A stretch of DNA of 64,000 nucleotides from a virus. Numbering within the stretch: the first letter of the stretch is position 1; every line of letters starts with the position of its first letter. Under the pieces are notes generated by a model. That model was not told the origin of the DNA, did no database searches, and was given only the letters and a program-made list of their open reading frames with translations. Below, in pieces: positions 12,840 to 44,151 of the stretch. The position numbers and the translations under genes were made by a program. The stretch lies in UHGV virus genome UHGV-0248979; one strand, 5' to 3'.

Positions 12840-13643
12840 TTACCACTTCCCGTTACCTAAACCCATAACACGTAGGTTAGTTTTCTTATTAGCGATGGCC
12901 AGGTACTCCTGCGCTAACGCACGAACTTCACCACGACGAGATTCTGTCGCGATAGCAGACGTAGTGTTAGGATTTCGCAGAATGTCCTCCAGCGCCTGGA
13001 GAGAAACACGACGGTCCAGCAGTACACGAGTGGATTCTTGCGCCACTTTGCTACCGCGTTGAATTGCAGAGTATTTGTTACAAATCTGCAACCCGTCTTC
13101 GATAACCCAGTCGAACGTCACCAGGCGATCTAAGCGACGTGTTTTCACACCACCTACATAGCCTTCACGTACGATTGCGCGCAGAGAGAAACATACGTTC
13201 TGGTGTGGGTTTTCGAGCGCTTCTGCTAAGTACGGACCACGTTCACGGTTCGGCTTAACCCAGCCCCAGATTTCCATAACCGGCAACCCGTTACAGGTTT
13301 GGTCGGTTGGAATCACTTCAACCTCACGAATGTGCATACAGACGTTTTTCGTCTCAATCCACTCGTTGCGATCGATCCACTGCGCTTCGGTCATGCCAGG
13401 CTCTGGTGCCGGGTGATCTTCTTCCCCGAACAGATTCCCTGCTTTCACTTTACGCATAAAAATATTCGAGCGTTCGAATACGTGTTTAGACTCGTTATAG
13501 GCGTAAAAAATCCCTTCCGAGTTAAAGATATTCAAAGCACCCAACAGTACGCGGTAATAACCATCCGCGTCTTTCTCCAGTGTGGCTGGAGCGTTAACAC
13601 CGGCTAACGCTACACAGTTGTAACGCAGTGTTAAATTGTCCAT
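12840..13643 (-). CDS. hypothetical protein, 267 aa
   Basis: ORF abutting the downstream gene. Confidence 0.5.
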   Translation of the reverse strand: MDNLTLRYNCVALAGVNAPATLEKDADGYYRVLLGALNIFNSEGIFYAYNESKHVFERSNIFMRKVKAGNLFGEEDHPAPEPGMTEAQWIDRNEWIETKNVCMHIREVEVIPTDQTCNGLPVMEIWGWVKPNRERGPYLAEALENPHQNVCFSLRAIVREGYVGGVKTRRLDRLVTFDWVIEDGLQICNKYSAIQRGSKVAQESTRVLLDRRVSLQALEDILRNPNTTSAIATESRRGEVRALAQEYLAIANKKTNLRVMGLGNGKW

Positions 13644-13674: not shown

Positions 13675-14409
13675 TTACCTCATAAACAAATCTTCGAGCG
13701 GTTCGGCACGCACCGGGTCAACCTGTAACGCGGAACGAATACCACGTTTAAGTTCTACGTCCGCAAGTTTCGCCAGTCTCGACGTTTTGTTAAGTGAACC
13801 ACTGCGCAACGGAATAAATTGCACAGGGTTGTTAAGATCGCTATCTTTCTTCAGCGTGTAACGGAAGAACGTTCTCGGATCACCTACTTTACGCTGTGTG
13901 TGTGCTGCGTAAACGTCAGCGGTAATCTGATCGGCAAATACAGTAAAACCGTTCCATTTCTTGACTTTATCAGGTGCCAAGAGTTCAGCATCATCCGCTG
14001 CAGTAAACCAGAAAGGACGATTACCAAAGTCGTAAATATACGACGCAATGTTGTAAATAGGGTGAGACAACACCTGTAAATTGCGGTTGGGGAAAACCAC
14101 TGTACCGGGATCAAAACGAAATTCGTAATAAGGAACGCCAAAGACGTCGATCTCTTCAAACGCCGTTGGGGTAATTTCCATAAGCGTTGTAACGCTGGAC
14201 ACCCCATATGTTTTACGGTCGGTAGAAATCGCAAAGATCCCTACAATTGTTACCGTAGAAGAAATAACCGCCAACTCCTTCGCCACAAACCCAACGGGGA
14301 TGTAAATGAAACATCCCCCTTTGGTAGTGGTGACCGTGCCGTTATTTACCAAGTCCGCATGAACCTTAGTAGGGTCACGACGGGCTGTTTCAATCGCACT
14401 CACGATCAC
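13675..14409 (-). CDS. hypothetical protein, 244 aa
   Basis: ORF in dense leftward operon. Confidence 0.5.
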   Translation of the reverse strand: MIVSAIETARRDPTKVHADLVNNGTVTTTKGGCFIYIPVGFVAKELAVISSTVTIVGIFAISTDRKTYGVSSVTTLMEITPTAFEEIDVFGVPYYEFRFDPGTVVFPNRNLQVLSHPIYNIASYIYDFGNRPFWFTAADDAELLAPDKVKKWNGFTVFADQITADVYAAHTQRKVGDPRTFFRYTLKKDSDLNNPVQFIPLRSGSLNKTSRLAKLADVELKRGIRSALQVDPVRAEPLEDLFMR

Positions 14410-14421: not shown

Positions 14422-15882
14422 TTAAAGTTTATCGACGAATACTGAACCTGCAATCCAGTTCAGTACATAGTCAATCATCCAACTGGTTGCGGCTTCTGCC
14501 GGGTCGGTGTTCTCAATCATCGCCGTATGAATCGCACGCATCAGCGGATCAATTTCGTAGGCGCAGAATACGGAGTTACATGCAGTCCGGATGATAAACA
14601 ACGTAATGTCTTCGTCTGCGTTGACAAAGAAATCATCACAAAAGCCCATAACAACCTGTTTGACTTCTTCGCGAGTACGCGTTAGTTCGCCAACAGTCAG
14701 GTACCCCTGGTCGAGCTGGTCGATTGCAATCGAGAACGCATTTTTCAGTGCCTGGCGGTTACGACTCACCCAATCGAGTTCGTTTCGTTTTTGAACGATA
14801 ATTGCACGACGATTGTAAGCCTCAACGTAGGCTTTCTGGTTCTCCAGCAGAGACGCAACACGTGCAGAAACGTTATAGTCGCCTTCATCCATCAGGTAAA
14901 TGGCACCCAACAGGGCTTCAACGATACCGCCTTTTTCCAGGTAGTCGTCCATCGTTTCCTGACAGATATAAACGTTTTTCTCGCTGGTATCGTAAGAGTA
15001 AACGATGTTACCTGTGGCGACACGGTTAGCCACCGCTTTTTCGAAACCGTATACCCAGCCGATAGACGTGTAGTAGGCACGACCCATTTCCGCTTTCCAT
15101 TTCAGGGCGTCAACACCTGAGTCAGGCCACGGACGTTCAATGAAGAACGAAGACAACAGCAGTACCAGAACACGTTCTTTTACCAGCTCTGGTGCTTTAT
15201 CTGCAACAGGTACGGTGTAGTTACCTGCCAGCAGCAGTCTTGCTGCGTCGTACATGCTGAGATTCAGGTCGTTCAGTAATTTACGTACCAGTTCATCGTA
15301 CGCTTTTACACCTGTTTCCGGAATCTCGATGTTGGTCGGTACATCGAACTTGATCGGGTCGTAGGTTGTACCGTTACCCATCGGGTTGGCGATTTCTTGA
15401 ATCAGCGCCTGGACGACTGGAGAATCTACACACGGATCGATACCTACTGGAATCAGGTTCCAGTCTTCGACCAACGGTTTGACATCCTCAATCGTGTTAT
15501 TCTGGATAACCAACTGTACAAACGGTTGAACAACGTTACGGGCAAAGTCTAGCATCCCGTTACAACGCTGAATGGCCATGTTCTTCAGTTCGAATAGCGT
15601 GGTTTCGTGATCGTCAACACGCAGTGCTTCAACTTCAACAGCGCCGTCACGAATAATCGAAGCTTCTGCCGTACCGTCTACAGGACGTTTAAGCTGAGTA
15701 ATCGCAGGCAGTTCCTGGAAGAACTGTTCGTCGGTGATTGTGGTATCGAAAACGCGCGTAGGGTCGACCGCACGGTTGAGTAAATCAACCGGAGAGTCAA
15801 CGTCTGTGCCAAGCTGAACATTATGCTGTTTGCACAGTTTCATGGCGTTAGTAACCGCATTCAGCGAGTATAAACTGATCAT
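14422..15882 (-). CDS. hypothetical protein, 486 aa
   Basis: ORF overlapping the upstream gene by 4 nt. Confidence 0.55.
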   Translation of the reverse strand: MISLYSLNAVTNAMKLCKQHNVQLGTDVDSPVDLLNRAVDPTRVFDTTITDEQFFQELPAITQLKRPVDGTAEASIIRDGAVEVEALRVDDHETTLFELKNMAIQRCNGMLDFARNVVQPFVQLVIQNNTIEDVKPLVEDWNLIPVGIDPCVDSPVVQALIQEIANPMGNGTTYDPIKFDVPTNIEIPETGVKAYDELVRKLLNDLNLSMYDAARLLLAGNYTVPVADKAPELVKERVLVLLLSSFFIERPWPDSGVDALKWKAEMGRAYYTSIGWVYGFEKAVANRVATGNIVYSYDTSEKNVYICQETMDDYLEKGGIVEALLGAIYLMDEGDYNVSARVASLLENQKAYVEAYNRRAIIVQKRNELDWVSRNRQALKNAFSIAIDQLDQGYLTVGELTRTREEVKQVVMGFCDDFFVNADEDITLFIIRTACNSVFCAYEIDPLMRAIHTAMIENTDPAEAATSWMIDYVLNWIAGSVFVDKL

Positions 15883-16172
15883 TGTTTAACCTCTTTATTC
15901 GTGCTGATGTTCGCCTGAAGCATCGCGTACAAACGCGCGCCCACCAGAGCTGCGATATCACGTTTCAGCAGTTTCTGATCACCGATACGGTCAGACATTC
16001 CTGAGTTACCGCGAATCAGTCCATGTACAATCTCCGTTGCTAATTCAACGGTATTACCTAAAGACACGTAGTTGGTACGTTGAATGGGACTGTATCCCTC
16101 CACGTTTTGCTGGGTAATATTTTTCCCAGTCGGAATACCGTGCCGCTGTTTGATTTTATCTAGAATAGACAT
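15879..16172 (-). CDS. hypothetical protein, 97 aa
   Basis: Small ORF overlapping the next gene by 4 nt. Confidence 0.45.
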   Translation of the reverse strand: MSILDKIKQRHGIPTGKNITQQNVEGYSPIQRTNYVSLGNTVELATEIVHGLIRGNSGMSDRIGDQKLLKRDIAALVGARLYAMLQANISTNKEVKQ

Positions 16173-16219: not shown

Positions 16220-19200
16220 TTATTTAAGTGTCGCGGGTAAATCAGGCACAGCTTCCCCATCGAGTATACGCCCGATGAGAATCCCGGCTTGTTCACCTAC
16301 AGCATTCGCGGTACCGATACGTTGGATTGAACCTACGATACGCGCATCGACAGAATCACGACCGAACAACACGTCCAGGTCATCACCATCCTCTGTTTTG
16401 TTGTCGCCGTACATGACTTCTTGTACGGTGGTTTTTAGCTGGTTAGCAATAACCATCTTATCCGCAGCGGCCATCTCAACGTCGTGTGTAATAAAGAATC
16501 GAACACAAAGTGAGTTAAAGGCTAATGGTACACCTTCGACACGGTAGTCGCCGTTTACACTGCCTGAAACCGGATCGCCACGCCCGACTGCCAAAGCGGC
16601 TTTACGACGAATTCTGTCGTATTTACGCACCAGTTCAGCAAGGCTTGGTGTCATGTCTTCGGTTTCACCGTGATACACCACTTCGATCTTATCCACGATA
16701 CCACGTACCCCTGCACGAGGTGCGTACGAACTTAAACTTTGCAACGTTGCGGCTGCTTCCTGACTAAAGGCACTCATATCGCCTGTCAAGTCGTCAGTAA
16801 ACGTGCATAGGATTGTATCGACGTCTACGTGGTCTCCTTCATTCACGATTTCCAGAAGCATCTGGTTGCTGTTAATCGTTACTTCTTTCAGCTTTGTTAC
16901 CTGCCCCACCATTTTCTTCGCGAACCGTTCAGAAATTGCGTTGGAGTCTTCGATAACTTCTTCAGCTTCTAATAAAGCAACGGTGGCCAGCACCCCGTTT
17001 TTCCAGGAAACCTGAGTAGGATCGTAAATATCAGGTTCAAAGTGTTGCTCGTTGTACGTAATCACTGCTCCGGCCGGGAGCTTATCACCGGCTTTCCAGC
17101 GTGTTACCAAGGTGTGCGGATAGAAGGTACCTTCGTGGGGGCCGAACCAGCGCCCTAGAGGAAAGGCTTCTTTACTTCCATCTTCGTACGTAATTTCAAT
17201 GTGGTCTTTCGACAGACCAGTAATCTTACCTGCTTTATCAATAACGCGTGCATGTTTCACCGAAGTACGGTGTGCGACGAATTTCTCCTGTTCAGTACGA
17301 TACGGGGTTGTGGTTGCCCCATTACAACTGGTGGCAGAACCTAACTGAATCCCAACGAAGTTTTGACGCTTTGCGTCGTCCATTAACGTATCTGGTACTA
17401 ACCCGTCAATAAACGAAAGGGTGTCGCTTGGTTTCGGGGTTTTCTCTTCACGTTTAAACGTAGTACCGTCAACGGTGTCAAAACGTGGGTTATTGGTGAC
17501 GAAAGCAGTAATACCTACGTCCCCGTTATCTACGGTGTTACCCGAGACTATCCCGATATCGCTGGGTTGGAATTCACGCGTGTGGTGGACCATCGTTTTA
17601 CGATTACGACCGCCTGTACCCCCCATCGTAATAACGTCTTTTTCTTTAATCGACTGAATAGGGTTAGCGCCTGGTGCCAAAAGTACCGACGGGTCGGAGT
17701 TAATTGCACCCCAAACCATGTCTTGCGTCAGTTCGAACTTACGGTTACTACCCGGTGCGTTATTGTAGTTACGCATCGCTCTGACCATCGCGGTATAGAT
17801 GTGGTAGGCAATCCTCTGATTTCCTAAGAACATCATTTCGTCGCCGTTAATCTCTGGTAAAGAGTGGTCAGTTTGTAACAGTTCGTTAGAACGTTCCAGC
17901 AATCCAATAAAGGTTTCCGGTTCACCCATTTTCCTGAGGATACGTGCGTGCATGTCGTCAACAAACGCGGACCGCATCTGTTTCAGCTCGTTGATGTACC
18001 GTGGTGTTAGGCCATCTGCATCACGTAATAAGTTCAGGTAAATGTCTTCACGGTCTGCTTCTGATTCGGTATAAGCAACCAGGTGTTTGAGATAGCGATC
18101 CAAACCATGCAGAATCATCTTCTGTTGATCGTTATCGCAAGTAACTAAAAGTTTACAGTCTTGTAGTCGAATAATGCTGTCGTAGGCATTCTTATCAACA
18201 CGTTGCCCTGCAGGAACCAACTCGTATTGGATACCGAAATGTTTCAACATTCCTTGGAGTCCAAGATAGAACGAGAAGATAAAACCAAGCGACAAAGATT
18301 TACCCATCAAAGACAGCTCGGTCATTTCGCGAGGCACCTTCTGGCTATTAAAGCCCAGTACCTCTGCGATAGTTCCCACTGGCTCAACTTTGTTTCCGTT
18401 CACACCGTAAAGCATGGATTTGTCATCCATTGCCAGGATTGTTTCACTACGCGGACGTTTCGCCACCGGCAGAAGTTTGGCAGCATCGGCGTCTCTGAGC
18501 TGCTCGTCGTTAAAGAAGTTAACGGCTTCTTTGTAGTCGAAGTTCCACATATAGCCGTTTGCATTAAAGCTGGCAATACGGCGTGCAATCTCCGTATACT
18601 GACGTGGCAGATGTTGCGTAGGATCGAACACATTTGCTAAACGTGCATCGGTGACTTCGGTGTTTGTCGGATCAACAGCACGTGTGATAATCGCGTTGGT
18701 TAACCAACGACCGTAATCGTTCGCGACCTTATCACTACGACGAACAAAGTTTTTACCGTAAGCGGTAGTCAGTGCGACTGTATCCGGTGCAACTTTACGA
18801 ATCGGTAAGTCCACACGTTGTCGACGCATGGTGTATTCGACACCGTTAGCTACCCAAGTACCGTCCTCGGTCAAGCCTGGGATGGAGAAGCGAACGGTTG
18901 TTGGTTCACCGCCGACCGGCTGAACACGTAAAGTGTGGTGTTCGATAGTCCCTGTAACAGAAACTTCTTTTTCCACCGTGTGGTTGTGAACTGCCAGACC
19001 CAAACGTTGTGAACTGGCGACCGCCGCCAGCACGTCCTTGGTCATCATGGTCTGGTTGTACTGTTTCACCATCTGGTCAGTGACGTTCTCTGCCCACCCT
19101 TCGTCGGTAACAAGCCGCTGAACTTTTTTCGGTTCAGCTTTAACGACGATATCCTTTTCGTGAACAGTAAGTGCTTCTCCGTAGGTTTCTTTCGGGTTAT

Positions 19201-20386
19201 ACGGGTTAGGCAGCTGAACGAAACGTTTAGACGATTCAGACAGGAACTGATATGCTTTAGAACTTAAGCGGCCCGCTTCAGCTAAGCGTTGTGCTTCCTG
19301 TTTAATAATTTCGTCATGCGGAATGACTTTCTCGACAACAATTGTCGTCGGTTTAACGTCTTCCTTCGGTTCTTCAATAACAACGTCTTCTTTTTCATCG
19401 AAGGTGTTATCGGATTCCACCACAGCGTCATTAACAACGTCATCGTCGTCGACAACATCAACGGTTTCTTCTTCGACGTCTTTAAGGAAAACACGTTCGT
19501 CACCTTCAGGCGTTAGGAACTCCGCTTCGTACGCGTTAGACGGTGCTTGTGTCATTACACGCACCAGCGTACGGTAGAACATCCGCGCCATTTGGTCGTC
19601 ACTTAAACGGCCGCCGGACGATTTACGCATTTTCTCTACAACACCCATGTTCATGGACGTAAAGCCCGTGTTGTGGGTGAAGATAAAGTTCATTCGTGAC
19701 AGCTGAGTTAAATCCATTCCCGCGAATAAGGAATCAGATTGTTTTCCATAAGCCCAAGCAAACAATTCTAATAACCACAGCAAGTTGAAGTCCTGGAACT
19801 TCTCAATCTTGCTCTTAACACGGTCGTTATAGGTTGTTTGAAACTTCTGGAACGAAGGCAATGTCGAACCCAGTTCAATAACGAAATAGTTCTGACGCAT
19901 GTATTCTTGCGTGTCGTATTTGAACTGGTTAATCATCAATAGTTGGATGTTACGCAATCTATCGTACCAGGCTAACTGGGTGTCAGGATAGTAGTAGTGC
20001 GATAACATCGGCGTGTAGTTCTCGATCAGGAGAACTTTTAAGTCTTTGCGAACCAGTTCGTCTGAGGTAAGACGACGCATCGGACGGTTTGCACGGTGGT
20101 AGGCAAAGATAGCACGTTCTTGTCCCTGTACAGGTTTGTTACGAGGATTCCCACTAATACCGTCTTCCGGTAATTTAAAGTGGTGGCGAACCTGCGCAGG
20201 TTTTTCTAACGGTTGAATAATTTCAAGCGTTGCAGGCGGTGCTAATACCACCTGGTCGAGATCAATGACGTGGAGTACAGAACCACGCGGTATCTGTAGC
20301 TTCTCGAGCGGGATAATCCTCGGATTACCAAACTCGTCGGTTTTGCGCACCGAGAAGCGTTGGTTAAACTGTTTAATGAGCAGCAT
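16220..20386 (-). CDS. large hypothetical protein, 1388 aa; candidate partner subunit of a non-canonical RNA polymerase
   Basis: Very long ORF directly downstream of the DYDGD-motif gene; internal acidic low-complexity stretch; no canonical motif confirmed. Confidence 0.6.
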   Translation of the reverse strand: MLLIKQFNQRFSVRKTDEFGNPRIIPLEKLQIPRGSVLHVIDLDQVVLAPPATLEIIQPLEKPAQVRHHFKLPEDGISGNPRNKPVQGQERAIFAYHRANRPMRRLTSDELVRKDLKVLLIENYTPMLSHYYYPDTQLAWYDRLRNIQLLMINQFKYDTQEYMRQNYFVIELGSTLPSFQKFQTTYNDRVKSKIEKFQDFNLLWLLELFAWAYGKQSDSLFAGMDLTQLSRMNFIFTHNTGFTSMNMGVVEKMRKSSGGRLSDDQMARMFYRTLVRVMTQAPSNAYEAEFLTPEGDERVFLKDVEEETVDVVDDDDVVNDAVVESDNTFDEKEDVVIEEPKEDVKPTTIVVEKVIPHDEIIKQEAQRLAEAGRLSSKAYQFLSESSKRFVQLPNPYNPKETYGEALTVHEKDIVVKAEPKKVQRLVTDEGWAENVTDQMVKQYNQTMMTKDVLAAVASSQRLGLAVHNHTVEKEVSVTGTIEHHTLRVQPVGGEPTTVRFSIPGLTEDGTWVANGVEYTMRRQRVDLPIRKVAPDTVALTTAYGKNFVRRSDKVANDYGRWLTNAIITRAVDPTNTEVTDARLANVFDPTQHLPRQYTEIARRIASFNANGYMWNFDYKEAVNFFNDEQLRDADAAKLLPVAKRPRSETILAMDDKSMLYGVNGNKVEPVGTIAEVLGFNSQKVPREMTELSLMGKSLSLGFIFSFYLGLQGMLKHFGIQYELVPAGQRVDKNAYDSIIRLQDCKLLVTCDNDQQKMILHGLDRYLKHLVAYTESEADREDIYLNLLRDADGLTPRYINELKQMRSAFVDDMHARILRKMGEPETFIGLLERSNELLQTDHSLPEINGDEMMFLGNQRIAYHIYTAMVRAMRNYNNAPGSNRKFELTQDMVWGAINSDPSVLLAPGANPIQSIKEKDVITMGGTGGRNRKTMVHHTREFQPSDIGIVSGNTVDNGDVGITAFVTNNPRFDTVDGTTFKREEKTPKPSDTLSFIDGLVPDTLMDDAKRQNFVGIQLGSATSCNGATTTPYRTEQEKFVAHRTSVKHARVIDKAGKITGLSKDHIEITYEDGSKEAFPLGRWFGPHEGTFYPHTLVTRWKAGDKLPAGAVITYNEQHFEPDIYDPTQVSWKNGVLATVALLEAEEVIEDSNAISERFAKKMVGQVTKLKEVTINSNQMLLEIVNEGDHVDVDTILCTFTDDLTGDMSAFSQEAAATLQSLSSYAPRAGVRGIVDKIEVVYHGETEDMTPSLAELVRKYDRIRRKAALAVGRGDPVSGSVNGDYRVEGVPLAFNSLCVRFFITHDVEMAAADKMVIANQLKTTVQEVMYGDNKTEDGDDLDVLFGRDSVDARIVGSIQRIGTANAVGEQAGILIGRILDGEAVPDLPATLK

Positions 20387-20395
20387 TGCTTAGCC

Positions 20396-22015
20396 TTATG
20401 GGTTCTTTAATAACGCTTGCGTTGCACGTTTAATCACGTTGTTGATGGGATTGATTTTAAAGTTCCCATCAGAATCGAACCAGTAGTTTTTCGAGTGTAT
20501 CCAGTTCCGGTTTTCCTCGAGCGCTTCCTGGGACATAGGCGCGTTAAACGAGCCGGTATCACCGTCATAGTCACCCCCTAAGCCACCTAAGCGTGAAGGG
20601 TGTGGTGCCATAGACTCAACGAAGGTAGGAACCGACCGGTCAGGGTAGCTGATAGCCCCTCGGGGTTTTTCAGTTTCCCAGTCATCTTCCAGTTCTTTTA
20701 AATATAAAGATGACGTGGTGGTCTCCAATCTTATGGTCGATGAATACGTCGAGCCTCGGCCTGTAACGGGATAACGTGTAACGAAACCGAAATAATCGTT
20801 CCAAAGTTCGTAGCCCGACAAATAAAGCAATTCGACGAGTGTCATACCGTGAACGAATTTTCGGTCAAACGTTTTAGGAAGTTCTTCAATATCGTAGAAC
20901 ACCTTAAAATGTTTGGTGTCTTGGTAAACCAACGCAATGTAGTGGGTGTCATCCAACATAATCGGCTGATGGCGAAGCTCGCGAGCTTCCATTCGGTTGA
21001 TTAAGGATTCAATCCCATCGTCGGTGGTAAAGGTGTCGTATACACGACCACCTACTTCCAAGAATTCACGTTTAAGGGTTTTGGTGTTTACGCCGTAAAG
21101 GTTGCCATCACCAGCACGGATGTTACCGAGGTAACGTTCACGTATTTGGTACTGCGCAACAGGGAGTAATGCTTTTAAACCCTGGTATAAGCCAATTTTG
21201 GTGTCGGTAGGACGAATAGCGTCTTCACGACCCATGCATTTAGACCCCGTCGAGAACGAGGACAATACGTTACGTGTCCCGTTCATTAATTTACGAGACG
21301 TCACTTTACGACGTTGGAAACCCCCTTTACCATCTTGGATGTTAAAGAAATACATCCAGATATCATTGAAGGTTTGTTGAAGTTTCCAGCGTACGGGGTT
21401 AGTTAATTCGACACGGGTTGCTCGGTCAGGGATTGCCCTGGCGAGAGATACCAACCGACGATACATCCCACCGATTTCTTCTTCTTGCTCTCTGCCATCT
21501 TGCCGAATTACTAAATCGCGTAAACCCGCGGGTAACACGAGAACGTATCGACTAAGACTGACGGGGCGGAATTTCAAAAAGAAATCCACGGTTTCGTCAC
21601 GCTGTAGGGACTCGTTACGCTTAGGTTTTAAATCGTTATAGTGACTGAGGAAGAAGTTAAAACCGGTATCTGCGCCTGGGTCTCCCGGCAAGGCCGGTTC
21701 GAAATCTTTTTCTTTTTCGCTCCACGTTGCGTAGCGTTTTCCAGAACAAATTTCTTCGTAGAGTTGTTTGAGTTGGAATAACGCCAAACACACTGTCGGC
21801 GAAATGATATCGAGCTTAATATCGATATAAGAGAATGTAGAGTCTCGCGCTTCACTACCCGTGAGTCCAAAAATCTCTGTAGAGTAAAGACCTTCGGGGT
21901 GAAAGTTTTTTGTTAACCCCTGGAAAGTATCCGTGGTCGTGACGGGTCGTAATCGCGACACAAGAGACTTGTTTACATTGAGCAGATAAAAGTCAACCCA
22001 ATTAAGTTTATTCAC
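20396..22015 (-). CDS. protein with DxDGD (DYDGD) motif; candidate RNAP beta-prime-like N-terminal fragment
   Basis: GTG start with AGGAGAT SD; ...RYPVTGRGSTYSS... and ...LGGLGGDYDGDTGSFNAPMS... near C-terminus resemble YSGRSV and NADFDGD of RpoC. Confidence 0.6.
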   Translation of the reverse strand: MNKLNWVDFYLLNVNKSLVSRLRPVTTTDTFQGLTKNFHPEGLYSTEIFGLTGSEARDSTFSYIDIKLDIISPTVCLALFQLKQLYEEICSGKRYATWSEKEKDFEPALPGDPGADTGFNFFLSHYNDLKPKRNESLQRDETVDFFLKFRPVSLSRYVLVLPAGLRDLVIRQDGREQEEEIGGMYRRLVSLARAIPDRATRVELTNPVRWKLQQTFNDIWMYFFNIQDGKGGFQRRKVTSRKLMNGTRNVLSSFSTGSKCMGREDAIRPTDTKIGLYQGLKALLPVAQYQIRERYLGNIRAGDGNLYGVNTKTLKREFLEVGGRVYDTFTTDDGIESLINRMEARELRHQPIMLDDTHYIALVYQDTKHFKVFYDIEELPKTFDRKFVHGMTLVELLYLSGYELWNDYFGFVTRYPVTGRGSTYSSTIRLETTTSSLYLKELEDDWETEKPRGAISYPDRSVPTFVESMAPHPSRLGGLGGDYDGDTGSFNAPMSQEALEENRNWIHSKNYWFDSDGNFKINPINNVIKRATQALLKNP

Positions 22016-22044
22016 GCTAAATCTCCTGATACGGATTAAACGTT

Positions 22045-25000
22045 ATGGCTAAAAAAGGTAAAGATGATTTCGATGAAATCGATCTTGATAACATGGACGA
22101 CTGGGACGATTTTGATGAGCCCCCTCGTCAACAAGACCAATCGCGTAACCCGGTCATGGACACATTTCGTGCTGCCCGTAAGTCGGCGTTGTCGACTATC
22201 TGGCCCGAAAACAAACGTGATCAGGTTATTTTAAAAGGGATGCCCAAACCTGCGGCAGAAGCCTACGAAGGCTATCAAAACGTTAAAGCTGCAGGTCAAG
22301 ACATTCTGGCCCATACGAAAGACGAGATTGAAAAGACGTCTCGCGTCGTTAAGATGCAAGCGAGACAGTTAGGCCCAACACTGAAACGGTATTTACCGGA
22401 ATCCGTAACACGGAAAATCGACAAGTGGGCACGTAACGATCAAATCGACTATGGGAATTACGATCCTAAACAAGCGATGATGGATCGTGAGCTGGACAGC
22501 GTGTTCTCAGGTGCACCGCAAACAGCGGACCAGCAACGTGAAACGCAAGAAGGGATGGTTGAAGACCGCCTGCGTGACACGATTAAGGACATGAAGTCCG
22601 ACGCACTGTTCCAGACAGTAATCGGTATTGCAAAAGACGTCAACTTAACGACTAGCTTAAGTCGTGGCGTGTTGTTGAATGTTCAGCGTAAGCAGTTAGA
22701 GCTACAATATCGAACATTGTTTGCTTTGCAGGATATTGCGAAACTCAAACAAGACGAGTTTGCACGCAATACACCGGCATTAGAAGCTATCGTTAAGAAC
22801 ACAGCACTGCCAGACTACGCGAAGGAAGAGTTTTCTGAAGTTCGTTGGGCTAATGTAAAACGTAAAGCTGCGGAGTGGATGAACCCCTTACGCTACGCAG
22901 ATAATTTCGTTGATCAGATTCGTGAAAATGCGAAGAAGAAAATCTCGAACATCTTTAGTGACGGCCGTGGAATTCTAGAACAAGTTCTAGGGATGGCTCA
23001 GGAAGATGACTTTGGCATGTCGGACAGCTCATCGTTGTCCCCTGACCGTCGTAACACAAACTCGCGTAATAAAGCGGCAGGTTTTGCAGGTGGTTGGTTA
23101 GCAAAACGGTTCTTACAACCCCAGATCGAGCGTCTCCAAAACTGGACTCGTGGCGAGTTAGAGAAAAATCCAGAAGTAATGAAGCGGTTGGAAAAGCTGA
23201 ATTACATCGTTAGTAATAAATCGTCACTTTCTAACTCAGCTATTGCGGGGGAGTCGAGCGGATGGTTAGCTGACTTTTTCCGCCTGTTGAACGACGTGGG
23301 ATTGGTTAACCCGCTACGTCGCGAAACGTTAGCATTAGACGATCGCTCTGCGGAATCTCTTTCTGCGGCGGCGAAATTCGATCGTAAAGCTTACCTTAGT
23401 ATCACCGAAGTTATTCCGACGTTACTGTCCGAGATTAACAAATCTATCCGTCGTGGATATGGGGAACACCACGATCAGGTTTATGACCTGACCACACGCG
23501 GTATGGTGGATCGTAAAGTTATTGGTAATCGTGTTCGTAAAGCGGTTGCTAATGACGATCAGCGTAAACGTTTACAGACTTACATCAACGATACTGTTGA
23601 CTTTATCGATAAAGATAAAACGCTCGATCGGAAAACACGCCAAGCATTAGCGGACTACATCGAATCTCGTGCCTCAGAAGGGAAAGCGTTCGACGTAGGG
23701 TCTTTATTGAAAGACCCGATGCACATGTATCGGTACATGAACGCAAACGCTGTGGAAGCGATTCAGGGTGTTTTAGAAGCCCGTTCTGCGGAACTGGTTG
23801 GTGGACACCATGAACTGAGCAACGCGATTTCAAACAAAATCGCCGCTATCCAGTCAACGATTCGCGCACGTCAGGACACTGTTGATGCTGCGTCTGTGAT
23901 TTACGGCGAGAATGCACTTCGTGATTCCGGTATTTTTAAATACGATGCGAAGAAAGACATTTTCGAGGTCGATAAGGACATTAACGATCCCTATACGTTA
24001 TTTAATGACCTGTCGATGGGTAAGACCCGCTCTGGACGTTCGTTAACCCGTGAGCAAGAGATTCAGCGTAAATTGCAAAACGGTTCTGCGCTGGGTGATT
24101 ACTTGCGTCGGATGGGTGCAGGCGCAGAGCCGAGCTTTGAAGACAAAGAACTGTCCAATGTACGTGGCGGTGGAAAAGGAGGTCGTGGTCGCGGTTTAAG
24201 CGCACGCCAACTCGCTGCGGTACTTTATGGAGAGAAATCCACTAACTTTGTTGAACTATTAAGCAGTCGTCCAGACACGAACGCCGGGTTGGAGCATCAA
24301 TTCGACCGTTTGATTGATGCTGTACGTAAACAGCCCGAATCTAGCACAGTGCAAGATATCCTCAAACACGTTAAGAACATGGATGAGGAAGGTATTCTCC
24401 TAGCCAGTTTAGGCGGTAGTCGTGATGACGGTGACGAATCTGAAAGTTCGAGTGACTCGGGTCGTAAACGTCGTCGTAAACGCAAACGTATTGTGCTAGG
24501 CGAGACAGGCTTGTTACGCCGTTGGGCTGGAGTGCTTTGGGATACCGGTTCAGGTGTAGGGCGTTTTGGTAAGAATCTGTTCCTACGTGGGAAAGATCGT
24601 CTGCAGGCTTTAGGTGGTTTTATCCGTGGGAAATTCTCAGGCGGCTCCTCCGAAGGACCCGGTGTATTTAGCCGACTGAAAGGGTTAGTAACAGGTACTC
24701 TATCGACAGGTTGGAATTCTGCTGTAGCTTTCGGTAAAGGCGTTTTAGGTGTTCGTGATATTTACGATGAACGTGGCAACGTCGTATTACAAGGAAGTCG
24801 TTTAGAAGCTGGGGAATATTACCAGGCTGACCCGAAAACTGAGAAGCTGATTCAACTTAAAACCCTCGACGATATTAAACTGGGACGTGATATTGTCGAT
24901 GAAGCGGGTAATTTAATCTTAGCTGCTGCTGATTTGGCTGCCGCAGGTAAACTGCGCTTCTACAAAGGTGGTAAAGTTCAAGCGCTTTTCCAGTACATTT

Positions 25001-28000
25001 CTGGGAAAGCAGGAACGGCGGTAAACAAAGCTGTGACTTTACCGAAGAAACTTTTAGGCTTCATTTCACCTAAAGCGGCTTCGTTGTTCGAGAAAGCACG
25101 TGAGTGGCTAAATGAGGTTCCAGAGGGCGCAGAGAAAACCCGTTTACAAAGCATGATTTCCCGTGTAACTGGAATGCCAGCACGTTTGTGGAACAATGCA
25201 AAACGCGGGTTTGAGAAGCTCAAAGAGTTGGCTTCTGATAACCCTCTGACACGTTGGTGGCAGAACCGTAAGGAAGGGGGTTCTGGTGGTGGGTTTAGTG
25301 TGTTCTCATGGTCGAACGGCCGTAAAACTAACCACATCTTAATCCGTATCTACAAACTCCTTAACCGGAGATTGCCAGGTGAACCAGAAGATGATACCTG
25401 GACAGAACAGATGGAACGGAATACGGGAGCCAGCTCAGTTAAAGGATTATTCCAACGTGCTAAGGACATACGTGAAGGGTTCCGTGAACATTTTCGGGGG
25501 TTCCGGGATTGGCGTGGTCGGATGCGTGACAGAATGTCCCGTTATCGCAGTGCGGTAGGTGGTCGTCTTTCTCGTTGGGGCGGTGCCGCACGTGGTTGGT
25601 TTGATCGTTTCCGTGGCCGTGCAAGCGATATGGTCGATACTTTCCGAGACCCACGTTACGATATCGGCACACGTTATCGAATGGAGAGTCGTTTAGCAGG
25701 ACGCGATGACGATGTTGCTGAGTTTTATCGTCAACACATCTACGCAAGAGGCAAGGTGTCTAAAACACGTATCATCGATGCGGCAAAAGAAGACTTAGAC
25801 ACCGTAACGGATAGCGCTGGACGTGTGATTAATAAAGGGAAACAGAAAGCCCGTAGCGTTGGGTCAGCTTTACTGGAACGCCTGAACCGAATGGTTAATC
25901 TTCAGGAAATGTCATGGTTTAACACCATGCGTGATTCTGCGGAAAAAGCAGGTGCTTCGGAAGGTTTGTTAAGAACTATGTTCAGTAAGTTCGGCCAACG
26001 CAATAAGCCGCCTGCCAGTGATGAAAAACGCGATTACTTCCAGTTCTTCCGACGCCGTCGGCGTTCTAAGGAAGAGGAAAAGGCTAAGAAAGAGGCTGAG
26101 AAGAAAGGTGGTAAACGTGGGGTAATGGATTTCCTTAAAGGATTGCCGTTGGTAGGACCAATCGTGAGTATTTTAGGCACAGTGGGTTCAATCTTAGGTA
26201 AACTTGCAAAATGGGGAATCTTCAAGCCGGTTGGATTTGCAGGCAAAGCGTTGTGGAACGTTGGTAAGTTTGCCGTGACCCGTTTGGCTGTCCCTGCGGT
26301 TAGTGCTGTCGCGACAGCTGCATCTGCAGTGGTAACTGCGGTTGGCTGGCCGATTATCGGTTTGGTAGCCGCTGGCGCAGGGTTAACGTGGTTTTATTAT
26401 AAAACTAAAGATCGTGTAAATGCCCAGTATCTGGATAACATGCGATTGGCACAGTACGGTTTTAGAGACCACGATGAATGGTCTTCCGACGACGGTGCAA
26501 AAGCACGTTATTTAGAAGACAACTTGAAACCGTATATCTCTTATACAGAGAACGGTCAAGCGCAGCTGCGTGGTTTGTCCGGTGACGATGTGAAGAAACT
26601 GGCCGAAGGGTTTGGTACTAACGTAGAAGACAAAGGCGAAATGCTGGCGTTTAGTGCGTTTATGCTACAACGTTTTGTGCCGATCTATTTACGTTGGATT
26701 ACAGCGTTACGTTCAATGGATAACGATATCGCGTTAGCTGACGTCGGTAATCCGTCGAAGGTATCAAAAGCAGACATGCTTACCATCTTTAACAAAATGA
26801 AGATGACAAAAGATGCACCTGCTTTTAAATCGCTGACAGACCCCCGTAAAGTTAACCAAGGTTGGTTCTCTAAAGCGTGGGATTTCGTGACCTTCACACC
26901 GGCAGAATTTTTGTCAGGCGAAGAAGTTGTTGAGGCACAAGATCGTGTTTTCCGTTCGATCAACATGCGCCGCGATGATAAGCGTAAGAAAACAACTGGA
27001 GCCGGTGCTGTGCCTGAAGGACATAAGGTTGCTTCTGTGGCAGAATCTTCGCAGGTACTCGCGAAGAACGATACCGAACGTAACGAAACCGTTGCTAAAG
27101 CTGAGGGTTGGGAAGACGGTACTGAACAGGTTCAAATTCAAGTTGACTGGAGAGTATTACCTGAGAAGAAAGATTTGGACGCGATGGAATCCGTCCGTTG
27201 GAAATCTTACGGTGTGAAATCTGTTAATGAGACAACACGTACCCTCTTTAGGTTGCTTGAGAAAGAAGTGTTGAAAGACACGGATATCAAAAATTGCATT
27301 TATAAGGGTGATTGGAAGAAAGCAATTTCTGCGATTGCGCCTGATGCAATTGGCGGTCCAAAAGAGGAGCGTTACAAGAACTGGTTCTATAATCGATTCT
27401 TACCAGTATTCATGACCTACGTTTATGGTGTAAAACGTTACGTACCTCATGCCGATCCGTTGGATTTGAAACTCACGGGGGGTTTCCTCTATGAGCTGGC
27501 ACTGATGATGCGTGGTGCTTACAACATGAAAGGGGGTATCCGTCAGTCTGTGTGGGAAATCGCATTTAACCCGTTAGGAGGCGATGCGAATACTGACGCG
27601 GGTTCGGTGAAGGAAGAATTAGCAACGTTGAAAGAGTTGTCTAAAGAACCTGATCTGGCTGTAAGGAATATGCTCAAAGAAACACCGAGCACGCCTAAGC
27701 GTATGACATGGAAATCACCAGCGACAAACTCCAGTGTCCATCAGACGAATGAAGATAGCAAAGAGCGTTATAAGGGAATTAACAGCTACGGCGAAGCTTC
27801 AAACGACGGATACTTACCAAAAGGTGGTCAGTACGGTACGCCAGGTGACTTATCACAAGTTGTTGGCGATATGGGTATAGGGAACTATGCGAAGTATTCC
27901 ACTGGACAATCTGGTATCACCCTCGGTGAGTTACAAGACGGTGATTACAAATCGTTAGTGACTAAATACCCAAGGGAAATGCTTGGCAAACCGATGCAGT

Positions 28001-31443: not shown

Positions 31444-32007
31444 ATGGCTAATACGCTATTAGGTAAATCAGGAAAACAACTGGTTTATGAGTTATTAGTA
31501 AAAAAGAATCCAGGTTTGGTAGAGAAAGGTATTACAATCGATAAGTTGAATTTTGGCACACCGTCACATATTCCCGCGGTAGAAACACCAGAAACTCAAT
31601 TTACGCGATTAAATACCCAACTTAGCGTCCAGGGAATTATTGAACAGAAAACGTTTGGTAAAATTGACGTTATTTATCGTCGGTTGGATTTAGAGCACCT
31701 CTTAGGTGATTTTGTAGTTTCTGTTGCGGGTGTTAATGCGGCTACGGTATCTGAGGTACTACAGCTTTTTCGCACTAAGTACAATTTGCAGATTACCGAC
31801 GATGAAGTTGAGAACCCAACAGCTGCACCAGACAGCAAAGATAAAACCATCATTATCATGAATGGGAGATCTTTGGCGTGGACGGGGCGGTTGGAGGTGT
31901 ACTTGACAGAGCTACCGTCCGACGGTAAGGATATTTCGAAGTTGATTAAAGTCACCGAACTTGACGGTTTAACGTATATCTCTTCTGGGATTGTTCCTGG
32001 CGCTTAA
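31444..32007 (+). CDS. hypothetical protein, 187 aa
   Basis: ORF 16 nt after the previous gene, ends at a bidirectional terminator. Confidence 0.5.
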   Translation: MANTLLGKSGKQLVYELLVKKNPGLVEKGITIDKLNFGTPSHIPAVETPETQFTRLNTQLSVQGIIEQKTFGKIDVIYRRLDLEHLLGDFVVSVAGVNAATVSEVLQLFRTKYNLQITDDEVENPTAAPDSKDKTIIIMNGRSLAWTGRLEVYLTELPSDGKDISKLIKVTELDGLTYISSGIVPGA

Positions 32008-32034
32008 AAAAAAGAAAAAAAAATAAGAAAGTTA

Positions 32035-32058
32035 ACCTACCTCCGAAGGGAGGTAGGT
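32035..32058. terminator. bidirectional intrinsic terminator hairpin
   Basis: acctacctcc / gaag / ggaggtaggt with long A-run upstream and T-run downstream between convergent genes. Confidence 0.7.
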
Positions 32059-32066
32059 GCTTTTAT

Positions 32067-32924: not shown

Positions 32925-32940
32925 AAAAGAATAAGGATTA

Positions 32941-32962: not shown

Positions 32963-32969
32963 TGAACTG

Positions 32970-33508: not shown

Positions 33509-33529
33509 ATCAATTCCCCACAGGTTACC

Positions 33530-42810: not shown

Positions 42811-43486
42811 ATAAAGCAGCATCCCGTGGGTCGACACCGACCCACTCTGCCATAAACCGGATATGTTCCTTAAACGGGTTAACGCCGTCTTGTTTGATTT
42901 GTTCAACCAACACGCCGGTCAATTCTGGTGTGAGCATGGCAGGGTGTGTGATGGTAAAGCTTGGAATCGGTTTTTTCAAGTGCGAAGCGTTAAGCTTAAT
43001 CCACTCGAACCAATCGTACATTATCCAGCAATCCCACGCCAATGATAATCTCCCCGGTGTGAGGTCTTCTAACGACCAAGACACCAATTCGACTTGTACG
43101 TTATTGTAATACATCCGAAACAGATTCAAAAAGGCTTGAAGTTCTTCGCCTGTTAAATCCGTATAAGGCCATGTATTGATGGTCAGAGTAGGTTTTTCAA
43201 TTGGCGAATGCATTTCGATTTCAAGCATCATACACTCGAATTCGTTTTTCATCGTTGCCAATAATTCAGTAGGCTGCGCATTAATCAAAGCGCGCTTATC
43301 CCGCTTCCGCCACTCTTCATCCCATTTTTCAAACCCGAGTACACCCGCCCATGCTTCTGTATAGCGACGCCGATAAACATCGTAGTCTAGTAAGGCTAAG
43401 CTTTCAGGCTTAATGGCTTTTACCCAACCTAAACGCGTATCAAATAACGTATCAATATCGATTAAGAAACGTCGAGATAATCTCAT
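42764..43486 (-). CDS. hypothetical protein, 240 aa
   Basis: ORF overlapping the next gene by 4 nt. Confidence 0.5.
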   Translation of the reverse strand: MRLSRRFLIDIDTLFDTRLGWVKAIKPESLALLDYDVYRRRYTEAWAGVLGFEKWDEEWRKRDKRALINAQPTELLATMKNEFECMMLEIEMHSPIEKPTLTINTWPYTDLTGEELQAFLNLFRMYYNNVQVELVSWSLEDLTPGRLSLAWDCWIMYDWFEWIKLNASHLKKPIPSFTITHPAMLTPELTGVLVEQIKQDGVNPFKEHIRFMAEWVGVDPRDAALFSLARPVQDVQTPPS

Positions 43487-44151
43487 GACGGATGGCCTAT
43501 GTTGTTACCGATATGCATCGCTTTGAGGTACGCTGACCACGTCCGTGTTGCTTTAGAACTCGTTCGCTCAGCTCCAGGCAAATCGATACGTCCTTTACCG
43601 GTTTGGCGCAGCGACTGATAGAAAGCACGTTGTAGTGCGTCGTTACCACCACGCGCCCACAAGAACTCTTTCAGTGTCCAGTCGTGACCATCGGAATACA
43701 TGATGTATGCTTCTGGGAAGGAGACCCCGGATGCTTTGGAAGGACCGACAACTTGACCGGAGAGTTTATCGCGAACTTTGTCGTTCTTCGCAACCGCCAT
43801 TTTCTTCTCTTGCATCTGCGTCTGACGACGGACAGGCAAGCGTAAGACCAAGTGAGGGTAACGAGTACGGTGATAAACACCTGTTTTTGGTTCTGTTAGC
43901 CACAACCGTTGCTCCAGGTTTACCCCTAGGATTTTGCACACCTCGATATTGCGCAGGTGGTCAATTTCGACTTTACTTCCCACCGGGTTGTAAATAGGTA
44001 AACCGTTACGAAGTCGGTTAAACTGTTCGTCGGTCATTCGTGCGAAGGCTTTCTTCGCGGCTTCGGCATTAATGCCAGAAGGGTCTACCAACTTTAAGAT
44101 TTGTAAGGCGTAGGCTTCCGCCTTTTTACGCCGCGCTGGTTCGAGTTTCAT
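43483..44151 (-). CDS. hypothetical protein, 222 aa
   Basis: ORF in operon. Confidence 0.5.
   Translation of the reverse strand: MKLEPARRKKAEAYALQILKLVDPSGINAEAAKKAFARMTDEQFNRLRNGLPIYNPVGSKVEIDHLRNIEVCKILGVNLEQRLWLTEPKTGVYHRTRYPHLVLRLPVRRQTQMQEKKMAVAKNDKVRDKLSGQVVGPSKASGVSFPEAYIMYSDGHDWTLKEFLWARGGNDALQRAFYQSLRQTGKGRIDLPGAERTSSKATRTWSAYLKAMHIGNNIGHPS

What the first reader, a model, noticed from the sequence alone, without database searches (positions are those of the whole stretch)
16220..22015. Candidate split, highly divergent multisubunit-type RNA polymerase (DYDGD motif) beside the giant virion protein gene
Seen: the 539-aa product of 20396-22015 carries ...SRLGGLGGDYDGDTGSFNAPMS... about 35 residues from its C-terminus, with ...RYPVTGRGSTYSS... 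upstream, followed on the same strand by a 1388-aa ORF. Established: NADFDGD is the Mg-binding motif of the beta-prime double-psi beta-barrel, preceded by YSGRSV; DxDGD also defines other two-barrel RNAPs (YonO-like, crAss-like virion RNAP), and phiKZ/AR9-type jumbo phages encode RNAPs split into several divergent fragments. Inference: these two genes may encode fragments of a non-canonical, possibly virion-packaged RNAP. Alternative: DxD-G could be part of a TOPRIM-like fold.
Basis: partly seen in the sequence, partly recalled or inferred. Interest (0 to 1): 0.7.

Follow-up and report, generated by a model that had tools for sequence, protein, structure and literature searches.

The report
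Jumbo-phage virion RNA polymerase genes
These two genes encode the beta-prime N-terminal piece and the main beta piece of the split RNA polymerase that phiKZ-like giant phages pack into their heads; this enzyme is already known and was studied experimentally in the close relative Salmonella phage SPN3US, so the finding is correct but ordinary.

Summary
On the minus strand, a 539-aa ORF (20396-22015) carries GGDYDGD at residues 480-486, and a 1388-aa ORF (16220-20386) follows after a 9-nt gap.

The window comes from a phiKZ-like jumbo phage of the SPN3US/phiEaH2 group. The two proteins are full-length orthologues of SPN3US gp240 (86% identity, beta'N) and gp241 (77%, beta). They correspond to phiKZ gp180 and gp178 and sit in the same head-gene module. 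Published mass spectrometry and amber mutants place these SPN3US proteins in an essential five-subunit, head-packaged, ejected RNAP.

Profiles, hhalign and an AlphaFold model independently tie the 539-aa protein to beta' (AR9 nvRNAP 7S01_d, E 1e-13). DYDGD aligns with E. coli D460/462/464. The 1388-aa protein aligns with beta 516-1107.

Two more subunit genes lie in the window: betaC (43483-44151) and the gp244-like protein (13675-14409). The beta'M gene is absent from the window.

Two corrections apply. The DYSGRSV counterpart is NGTRNVLS (245-252), not RYPVTGRGSTY. The motif lies 53 residues from the C-terminus, not about 35.

Two items remain open: the RNAP-unrelated N-terminal domain of beta, and the beta'C homology of gp244, which could not be reproduced.

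Novelty: already known. Interest: low.

The parts
20396..22015 (-). Gene for the virion RNAP beta' N-terminal subunit (539 aa). It is the orthologue of SPN3US gp240 and phiKZ gp180.
   Evidence: The ORF is listed. It matches phrog_2986 at E 7e-234. It is 86% identical over its full length to SPN3US gp240. The family profile hits the AR9 nvRNAP beta' chain 7s01_d at E 3.7e-13, then plastid and bacterial beta'. The AF2 model has pLDDT 80. Foldseek against the PDB gives 7s01_d at E 1e-13 first, followed by hundreds of beta' chains.
20558..20572 (-). Codons for DYDGD (residues 482-486), the catalytic Mg-binding Asp triad of the beta' double-psi beta-barrel.
   Evidence: D482 is invariant and D484, G485 and D486 are at least 90% conserved across 33 homologues; the family consensus is GADFDGD. 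HMMER and hhalign align the motif with NADFDGD, E. coli beta' D460/D462/D464.
21260..21283 (-). Codons for NGTRNVLS (residues 245-252), the counterpart of beta' DYSGRSVI.
   Evidence: hhalign aligns residues 139-252 with E. coli beta' 217-356 (probability 89%, E 2.5e-6). G246, T247, R248 and V250 are invariant.
16220..20386 (-). Gene for the virion RNAP beta subunit (1388 aa), comprising a lineage-specific N-terminal extension plus the beta N-half and catalytic core. It is the orthologue of SPN3US gp241 and phiKZ gp178.
   Evidence: The ORF is listed. It matches phrog_3148 at E 0. It is 77% identical over its full length to gp241. The family profile hits Thermus beta at E 8.8e-14 with three collinear stretches. 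hhalign aligns residues 905-1350 with E. coli beta 516-1107 (probability 93%).
16427..16465 (-). Codons for ADKMVIANQLKTT (residues 1308-1320), the beta barrel motif equivalent to GDKMAGRHGNKGV with its two lysines.
   Evidence: The alignments are. D1309, K1310 and K1318 are invariant in the family.
19517..20386 (-). The N-terminal roughly 290-aa alpha/beta domain of the beta subunit, which has no counterpart in cellular beta.
19343..19507 (-). Acidic linker (residues 294-348; 23 D/E against 5 K/R), predicted to be disordered.
   Evidence: pLDDT is below 50 over residues 294-327 and 341-348. This is the least conserved segment, at 43%.
43483..44151 (-). Gene for the virion RNAP beta C-terminal subunit (222 aa). 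It is the orthologue of SPN3US gp218.
   Evidence: It matches phrog_3233 at E 6e-93 and is 83% identical to gp218. A 12-sequence profile hits E. coli beta 1158-1310 (E 9.7e-5). hhalign aligns residues 33-193 with beta 1158-1319 (probability 90%).
13675..14409 (-). Gene for the fifth virion-RNAP-associated protein (244 aa by the mechanical ORF call; the true start is probably 2 codons downstream). It is the orthologue of SPN3US gp244 and phiKZ gp176, which the literature calls beta'C.
   Evidence: It is 86% identical to gp244 and matches phrog_2926. In SPN3US it is packaged co-dependently with the other four subunits, and its amber mutant loses all five. Its homology to beta' was not reproducible here.

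Best explanation
The two ORFs encode two of the five polypeptides of the virion RNA polymerase (vRNAP) of a phiKZ-like, nucleus-forming jumbo phage of the SPN3US/phiEaH2 group. The 539-aa protein is the N-terminal third of beta', covering roughly E. coli beta' 1-520. It carries the clamp helices and the barrel with the Mg-chelating triad D482/D484/D486. The 1388-aa protein is beta without its last ~200 residues, and it is preceded by a phage-specific ~450-residue extension. It supplies the second barrel with K1310 and K1318, the DDAKR motif and the fork-loop region. The rest of beta is the 222-aa protein encoded at 43483-44151. The middle of beta' (bridge helix and trigger loop; gp42 in SPN3US) is encoded outside the window. 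A fifth gp244-like protein is encoded at 13675-14409. By analogy with SPN3US and phiKZ, the subunits are made late in infection and assemble into one complex, which is incorporated into the prohead. The complex is ejected with the DNA and transcribes the early genes without host RNAP. The sequence, fold, orthology and synteny steps are shown here. Packaging, ejection and early transcription are inferred from experiments on orthologues.
For: Orthology: the window proteins are 86%, 77%, 86% and 83% identical over full length to SPN3US gp240, gp241, gp244 and gp218. Gene order is identical to SPN3US gp237-260, phiEaH2 gp157-178 and phiKZ gp175-182: giant lytic virion protein, beta'N, beta, two small genes, gp244-like, prohead protease.

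Homology to RNAP: profile A1 hits AR9 nvRNAP beta' at E 3.7e-13 and bacterial and plastid beta' at E 5e-10 to 4e-6, in two collinear stretches. hhalign aligns residues 139-252 with beta' 217-356 and residues 468-538 with beta' 446-516. The AF2 model (pLDDT 80) has a run of strands between residues 409 and 491 around the triad. Foldseek gives 537 PDB hits at E<=1e-3, and all 50 listed hits are RNAP entries, led by the AR9 nvRNAP beta' chain. Profile A2 hits beta at E 8.8e-14, and hhalign aligns 431 columns against E. coli beta 516-1107. The betaC profile hits beta 1158-1310.

Catalytic residues are invariant across the families.

Function in orthologues: SPN3US mass spectrometry finds gp240, gp241, gp218, gp42 and gp244 in heads. 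Amber mutants in gp241, gp218 or gp244 lose all five subunits and are non-viable (PMC5105663, PMC5694885). The phiKZ vRNAP is gp178/gp149/gp180/gp80 and is injected to express early genes (PMC8287921).
Against: There is no experimental evidence for this particular phage. The beta'M gene, which should hold the bridge helix and trigger loop, is not in the window, so completeness of the enzyme cannot be shown here. Homology of residues ~461-904 to the N-half of beta is supported only by one non-significant collinear stretch, residues 505-530 against Thermus beta 117-142. Pfam models detect nothing in either protein. The beta'C label of the gp244-like protein could not be reproduced. TM-scores to solved beta' chains are low (about 0.3). 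That is expected for an isolated multi-domain fragment, but it means the global arrangement of the model is not verified.
Confidence: 0.95

Rival explanations
1. The two genes encode subunits of the second, non-virion RNAP (nvRNAP) of the phage, which transcribes middle and late genes inside the phage nucleus, rather than the packaged enzyme.
For: phiKZ-like phages carry two paralogous sets of split beta/beta' genes. The best solved-structure match is an nvRNAP, AR9 7s01_d, but this reflects the absence of any jumbo-phage vRNAP structure among the hits.
Against: Identity to the virion set gp240/gp241 is full-length at 86% and 77%. The SPN3US nvRNAP genes gp34 and gp35 give only chance-level matches to these proteins (E >= 0.02) and to the window (E >= 0.12). 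The genes lie in the head-gene module next to the prohead protease, as in SPN3US and phiKZ.
Confidence: 0.02
2. The proteins are catalytically dead relics of an RNAP that are retained as structural or ejection proteins of the head.
For: The proteins are extremely diverged from cellular RNAP (12-14% identity in the structural alignments). The N-terminal zinc ribbon is missing, with only three Cys at 76, 90 and 260. Pfam finds nothing. The beta subunit carries a large non-RNAP extension.
Against: The Asp triad, the barrel lysines, the DDAKR motif and the GGxGGR motif are invariant or nearly so across families that span down to 19-38% identity. Early transcription of phiKZ-like phages is independent of host RNAP, and loss of vRNAP subunits gives intact but non-viable particles.
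Confidence: 0.02
3. The proteins belong to a single-chain two-barrel polymerase family (YonO-like, crAss-like gp66, or RdRP/QDE-1-like), and the DxDGD-containing protein works on its own.
Against: The two barrels lie on separate polypeptides. Each aligns collinearly over hundreds of residues with bacterial beta' or beta, including clamp, fork-loop and flap-proximal regions. No single-chain two-barrel polymerase appears among the top sequence or fold hits.
Confidence: 0.005
4. DYDGD is part of a TOPRIM-like or other acidic metal-binding fold unrelated to RNAP.
For: A DxD followed by G occurs in TOPRIM domains. By composition the pentapeptide is expected about 0.18 times per window.
Against: There is no TOPRIM or primase hit in Pfam, PDB sequence, profile or fold searches. 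All significant hits are RNAP beta' chains.
Confidence: 0.002

Closest known systems
Salmonella phage SPN3US virion RNAP: gp240 (beta'N), gp241 (beta), gp218 (betaC), gp244, gp42 (beta'M)
   Same: Four of the five subunits have full-length orthologues in the window, at 77-86% identity. Gene order and orientation are identical, including the neighbouring giant lytic protein, gp242/gp243 and the prohead protease. Subunit lengths and split sites are the same.
   Different: DNA identity to any phage in the collection is only about 75-76%, so this is a distinct species or genus-level relative. The acidic linker of beta is 13 residues shorter than in gp241. The beta'M gene lies outside the window.
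Pseudomonas phage phiKZ virion RNAP: gp180, gp178, gp149, gp80 (plus gp176)
   Same: The module order is the same: gp181 giant lytic protein, gp180, gp178, gp177, gp176, gp175 protease. Identity of the beta'N fragment is about 32%. The split architecture is the same.
   Different: phiKZ has an extra gene (gp179) between the two RNAP genes, whereas here the gap is 9 nt. phiKZ-level relatives of the beta subunit are only about 20% identical, and their N-terminal region is not alignable at sequence level.
Bacillus phage AR9 non-virion RNAP (PDB 7S00/7S01), the nearest solved structure
   Same: It is the best sequence-profile and fold match for the beta'N fragment (E 4e-13 and 1e-13). It is also a split beta'. 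It also lacks cysteines in the aligned segment where cellular beta' has its zinc ribbon, and it also reads DYDGD at the triad.
   Different: It is the paralogous non-virion enzyme of a distant Gram-positive phage, at 13-14% identity. It is not packaged.
Bacterial, plastid and cyanobacterial RNAP beta and beta' (including the naturally split cyanobacterial/plastid beta')
   Same: The two-barrel catalytic core is shared. The Asp triad aligns with E. coli D460/462/464. DYSGRSV aligns with NGTRNVL, GPGGLTRER with GGTGGRNRK, DDANR with DDAKR, and GDK...NKG with ADK...LKT.
   Different: Identity is 12-13%. The four-Cys zinc ribbon is absent. The split sites differ: beta' is cut near E. coli residue ~520, and beta between ~1107 and ~1158. 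Beta carries an extra ~450-residue N-terminal module. By alignment, the rifampicin-contact positions D516, H526, R529 and S531 read P905, E915, V918 and T920; calling these contact residues rests on my own knowledge. This is consistent with the rifampicin-insensitive infection reported for phiKZ. No alpha or omega homologue is known in this family.

Membership tests
RNAP beta' subunit (two-barrel multisubunit RNAP) | Double-psi beta-barrel carrying the NADFDGD Mg-binding Asp triad | tested here: met
   GGDYDGD lies at residues 480-486 and the family consensus is GADFDGD. D482 is invariant and D484, G485 and D486 are at least 90% conserved. The motif aligns with E. coli beta' 458-464. The model shows strands between residues 409 and 491 around it, and the fold hits are beta' chains.
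RNAP beta' subunit (two-barrel multisubunit RNAP) | Clamp helices and the R..GKRVDYSGRSVI segment upstream of the barrel, collinear with the triad | tested here: met
   hhalign aligns residues 139-252 with E. coli beta' 217-356 (probability 89%, E 2.5e-6). HMMER finds two collinear stretches in more than 50 beta' chains.
RNAP beta' subunit (two-barrel multisubunit RNAP) | N-terminal four-cysteine zinc ribbon (E. coli C70/C72/C85/C88; positions from my own knowledge) | tested here: not met
   The protein has only three Cys, at 76, 90 and 260, and no CxC...CxxC pattern. The AR9 chain also has no cysteines in the aligned segment. This appears to be a lineage trait of the phage enzymes, so it does not bar membership of the phage family.
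RNAP beta' subunit (two-barrel multisubunit RNAP) | Bridge helix and trigger loop | not testable with these tools
   These lie beyond E. coli beta' residue ~520, where the 539-aa protein ends. The expected carrier, the gp42-like beta'M, is not encoded in the window (tblastn best E 2.5).
RNAP beta subunit | Collinear fork-loop/rif region, DDANR motif and second barrel with GDK...NKG lysines | tested here: met
   The family profile hits Thermus beta at E 8.8e-14. hhalign aligns residues 905-1350 with E. coli beta 516-1107. D1309, K1310 and K1318 are invariant, and D1003 and R1007 of the DDAKR motif are invariant.
RNAP beta subunit | N-terminal half of beta (protrusion and lobe) | tested here: inconclusive
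   Only one short collinear stretch was found, residues 505-530 against Thermus beta 117-142, and it is not significant on its own (i-E 3e2). No structure prediction was run for residues 461-904.
RNAP beta subunit | C-terminal ~200 residues of beta (clamp-proximal region) | tested here: met
   This region is absent from the 1388-aa protein, which ends near beta residue 1107. It is supplied by the separate 222-aa ORF at 43483-44151, whose profile hits E. coli beta 1158-1310 (E 9.7e-5; hhalign probability 90%).
phiKZ-like (Chimalliviridae) virion RNAP | Orthology to subunits shown by proteomics to be in the head (SPN3US gp240, gp241, gp218, gp244) | tested here: met
   Full-length identities are 86%, 77%, 83% and 86%. 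The virion location and co-dependent packaging of the SPN3US proteins are reported in PMC5105663 and PMC5694885.
phiKZ-like (Chimalliviridae) virion RNAP | Location in the conserved head-gene module beside the prohead protease and the giant lytic virion protein | tested here: met
   Gene order is identical to phiEaH2, SPN3US and phiKZ.
phiKZ-like (Chimalliviridae) virion RNAP | Physical packaging in the capsid, ejection with the DNA, and transcription of early genes | not testable with these tools
   This requires virion mass spectrometry and transcription assays on this phage.
phiKZ-like (Chimalliviridae) virion RNAP | Fifth subunit (gp244/gp176-like) being the C-terminal end of beta' | tested here: not met
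   A profile of 59 diverse family members gives no RNAP hit in the PDB (best E 0.79, to unrelated proteins). hhalign against full E. coli beta' gives probability 0.2%. The protein's association with the complex rests on SPN3US genetics.
Single-chain two-barrel RNAPs (YonO, crAss-like gp66) | Both barrels in one polypeptide, with only motif-level similarity to beta/beta' | tested here: not met
   The barrels lie on two polypeptides, each with extended collinear similarity to bacterial subunits.
TOPRIM-fold enzymes | TOPRIM fold around the acidic motif | tested here: not met
   No TOPRIM hit was found in Pfam, PDB sequence or profile searches or the fold search.

The most novel reading that the evidence does not exclude
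The parts of this enzyme with no cellular counterpart may not be degenerate RNAP pieces. These parts are the conserved ~290-aa N-terminal alpha/beta domain plus acidic linker of beta, and the 244-aa gp244-like protein, which shows no detectable beta' homology. They could instead form a dedicated module for capsid targeting and ejection or for early-promoter recognition. For example, the gp244-like protein could be a vRNAP-specific initiation or assembly factor rather than 'beta'C'.
Probability: 0.25. Interest if true: 0.4.

Novelty: already known. Interest (0 to 1): 0.12.

Why it matters
The finding matters little as a discovery. The split virion RNAP is a hallmark of phiKZ-like jumbo phages. 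It is annotated in PHROGs and GenBank and was dissected genetically and proteomically in SPN3US, whose subunits are 77-86% identical to these. Proteins 94-96% identical to the two found here are already in public databases. The finding is useful as a positive control, because the first-stage reader recognised a 12-14%-identity RNAP from motifs alone.

Open questions remain for the family as a whole. No jumbo-phage vRNAP structure appeared among the sequence or fold hits or in the literature search. How a ~300-kDa complex is packaged and passed through the tail is unknown. So are the function of the N-terminal module of beta, the true nature of the gp244-like subunit, and what recognises early promoters.

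Tried and rejected
- **Pfam scans:** neither RNAP protein gave a hit, and the betaC ORF, the gp244-like ORF and the N-terminal extension gave none either. The curated cellular RNAP models are too distant.
- **Single-sequence phmmer against the PDB:** the 539-aa protein gave only a sub-threshold beta' hit (E 0.4). The 1388-aa protein gave spurious laccase hits, and betaC gave nothing. Family profiles were needed.
- **Pairwise BLASTP of betaC and gp244-like against the E. coli C-termini:** uninformative, apart from one collinear E 0.009 segment for betaC.
- **hhalign of the beta'N profile against E. coli beta' 395-455:** this tested whether RYPVTGRGSTY matches NRAPTLHR. It found no support (probability 0.3%). 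That equivalence is plausible from position and predicted strands but remains untested.
- **afdb50 fold library:** not available.
- **Rejected readings:** TOPRIM, YonO/crAss-like and nvRNAP. See the rival explanations.
- The betaC profile was built from phage records instead.

Full report
**Observation**

Both ORFs exist as described, on the minus strand. The first runs 20396-22015 (539 aa). It has a GTG start with an AGGAG 7 nt upstream. The second runs 16220-20386 (1388 aa) and follows after a 9-nt spacer.

DYDGD lies at residues 482-486, with 53 residues after it rather than about 35. RYPVTGRGSTYSS lies at residues 414-426. DxDGD occurs once in all six frames of the window, against 0.18 expected from composition. 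The pentapeptide alone is therefore weak evidence, and the surrounding sequence has to carry the case.

**What the genome is**

The region matches phiKZ-like jumbo phages of Erwinia and Salmonella. The closest are phiEaH2, Stratton, Asesino and the SPN3US-like phages. DNA identity is only about 75-76%, and protein identity is about 85%. Proteins 96% and 94% identical to the two found here already exist in NCBI Salmonella enterica assemblies, on contigs of about 220 kb.

Gene order across the window matches phiEaH2 gp157-178 and SPN3US gp237-260. It also matches phiKZ gp175-182. The order is: giant lytic virion protein (divergently transcribed), beta'N, beta, two small genes, the gp244-like gene, then the prohead protease. 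In phiKZ terms the 539-aa ORF corresponds to gp180 and the 1388-aa ORF to gp178.

**Identity of the 539-aa protein**

- Pfam finds nothing.
- PHROGs places it in phrog_2986, 'RNA polymerase beta subunit', at E 7e-234.
- It is 86% identical over its full length to SPN3US gp240.
- A 33-sequence family alignment has the consensus GADFDGD at the motif. D482 is invariant and D484, G485 and D486 are at least 90% conserved.
- The family profile hits the beta' N-terminal chain of the AR9 non-virion RNAP (7s01_d) at E 3.7e-13. It then hits plastid and bacterial beta', with two collinear stretches.
- hhalign against E. coli RpoC aligns residues 139-252 with beta' 217-356. It aligns residues 468-538 with beta' 446-516.
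- DYDGD therefore corresponds to D460/D462/D464, and the polypeptide ends near beta' residue 520.
- An AlphaFold2 model (mean pLDDT 80) predicts a run of beta-strands between residues 409 and 491 around the triad.
- Foldseek against the PDB returns 7s01_d first (E 1e-13). It gives 537 hits at E<=1e-3, and all 50 listed hits are RNAP entries. TM-scores are low (about 0.3), as expected for an isolated multidomain fragment.
- The four-Cys zinc ribbon of cellular beta' is absent. The AR9 chain also has no cysteines in the aligned segment.
- I could not confirm by hhalign that RYPVTGRGSTY corresponds to NRAPTLHR of the first barrel half. That remains an inference.

**Identity of the 1388-aa protein**

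- It matches phrog_3148 at E 0.
- It is 77% identical over its full length to SPN3US gp241.
- The family profile hits Thermus beta at E 8.8e-14 with three collinear stretches.
- hhalign aligns residues 905-1350 with E. coli beta 516-1107 (probability 93%).
- Recognisable motifs are GGTGGRNRK (for GPGGLTRER), DDAKR (for DDANR) and ADKMVIANQLKTT (for GDKMAGRHGNKGV). D1309, K1310 and K1318 are invariant.
- By that alignment, the positions opposite E. coli D516, H526, R529 and S531 are P905, E915, V918 and T920. These are rifampicin-contact residues by my own knowledge. This inference fits the rifampicin-insensitive infection reported for phiKZ.
- The alignment stops near beta residue 1107, so the last ~200 residues of beta are missing from this protein.

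**Other subunits in the window**

*betaC.* The 222-aa ORF at 43483-44151 (minus strand) matches phrog_3233. It is 83% identical to SPN3US gp218. A 12-sequence profile built from diverse phage records hits E. coli beta 1158-1310 at E 9.7e-5. hhalign gives probability 90%. The 1388-aa and 222-aa proteins together account for the whole of beta.

*gp244-like.* The 244-aa ORF at 13675-14409 (minus strand) is 86% identical to SPN3US gp244. The literature calls gp244 beta'C on the strength of an HHpred E of 0.05. An exhaustive HMMER search found 428 clusters in this family, the best 150 of them mostly about 240 aa. A 59-sequence profile gives no RNAP hit in the PDB (best E 0.79). hhalign against E. 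coli beta' gives probability 0.2%. The beta' homology is therefore not reproducible here by sequence. The protein's link to the enzyme rests on SPN3US genetics.

*Not present.* SPN3US gp42 (beta'M) has no homologue in the window, and neither do the nvRNAP genes gp34 and gp35 (best E 2.5 and 0.12).

**The non-RNAP part of beta**

Residues 1-290 fold confidently (pLDDT about 90) into an alpha/beta domain. An acidic disordered linker follows (residues 294-348; 23 D/E against 5 K/R), and then helices.

Within the SPN3US-like group the domain is as conserved as the catalytic core, 60% against 62-65%. Thomas et al. hypothesise that it targets the complex to the head. I could not test that.

**Mechanism**

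The sequence, fold, orthology and synteny results above are shown here. The functional steps are inferred from orthologues:

- SPN3US mass spectrometry finds gp240, gp241, gp218, gp42 and gp244 in heads.
- Amber mutants in gp241, gp218 or gp244 lose all five subunits together and give non-viable particles.
- This implies that the complex assembles before it is incorporated into the prohead (PMC5105663, PMC5694885).
- The phiKZ vRNAP is injected with the DNA to express the early genes (PMC8287921).

**Verdict**

The TOPRIM and single-chain polymerase alternatives are rejected. The system is already known and annotated, so interest is low. The residual open points are the N-terminal module of beta and the nature of the gp244-like subunit.

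Noticed in passing
window 13675-14409 (-): The gp244/gp176-like 'beta'C' protein belongs to a large family (428 clusters at 50% identity), the best 150 hits mostly about 240 aa. A 59-sequence profile of this family shows no detectable similarity to any solved RNAP chain or to E. coli beta'. The literature label rests on an HHpred E of 0.05. The mechanical ORF starts at a GTG two codons upstream of the position where SPN3US gp244 starts.
   Followed up: partly
window 19517-20386 (-), residues 1-290 of the 1388-aa protein: This is a confidently predicted alpha/beta domain with no meaningful PDB match. Its fold is found only in other jumbo-phage vRNAP beta proteins, sometimes as a separate protein of about 461 aa. 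It is followed by a 55-residue acidic disordered linker.
   Followed up: partly
window 22016-22044: Only 29 bp separate the divergently transcribed beta'N gene (GTG start) from the 2387-aa giant virion protein gene. Any promoters for the two genes must be very compact or lie inside coding sequence. No promoter analysis was run.
   Followed up: no
window 22045-29208 (+): The 2387-aa protein matches phrog_3201 'tail fiber protein' and has a transglycosylase domain at residues ~1985-2180. It is the counterpart of phiKZ gp181 (annotated as a tail-associated endolysin) and SPN3US gp239.
   Followed up: partly
window 12840-13643 (-), 14422-15882 (-), 15879-16172 (-): The 12840-13643 ORF is the prohead protease (phrog_3014), at the position of SPN3US gp245. 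The other two ORFs are the gp243-like (486 aa) and gp242-like (97 aa) genes. In SPN3US, gp243 is required for incorporating abundant ejection proteins into the head (PMC5694885).
   Followed up: partly
window 47181-48176 (-) and 48106-49032 (-): Two adjacent ORFs both match phrog_6160 (unknown function). As called, they overlap by about 70 nt. They look like tandem paralogues.
   Followed up: no
L005 10493-11566 (phiKZ gp179): phiKZ has an extra gene of about 357 aa between its beta'N and beta genes. It is absent here and in SPN3US and phiEaH2. Mobile introns and homing endonucleases in jumbo-phage RNAP genes are reported in the literature (bioRxiv 10.1101/2023.09.30.560319, title and abstract only).
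   Followed up: no
(Salmonella phages SPFM1, SPFM6, SPFM12): Some SPFM records give odd partial matches: high HMMER scores but only 2-10% BLAST coverage of the RNAP subunits. This suggests frameshifts or sequence-quality problems in those records.
   Followed up: no
window 32000-38000: GC content dips to 0.41-0.43, against 0.45-0.50 in the structural module. This stretch contains the MazG-like pyrophosphatase and thymidylate synthase genes plus several small ORFs.
   Followed up: no
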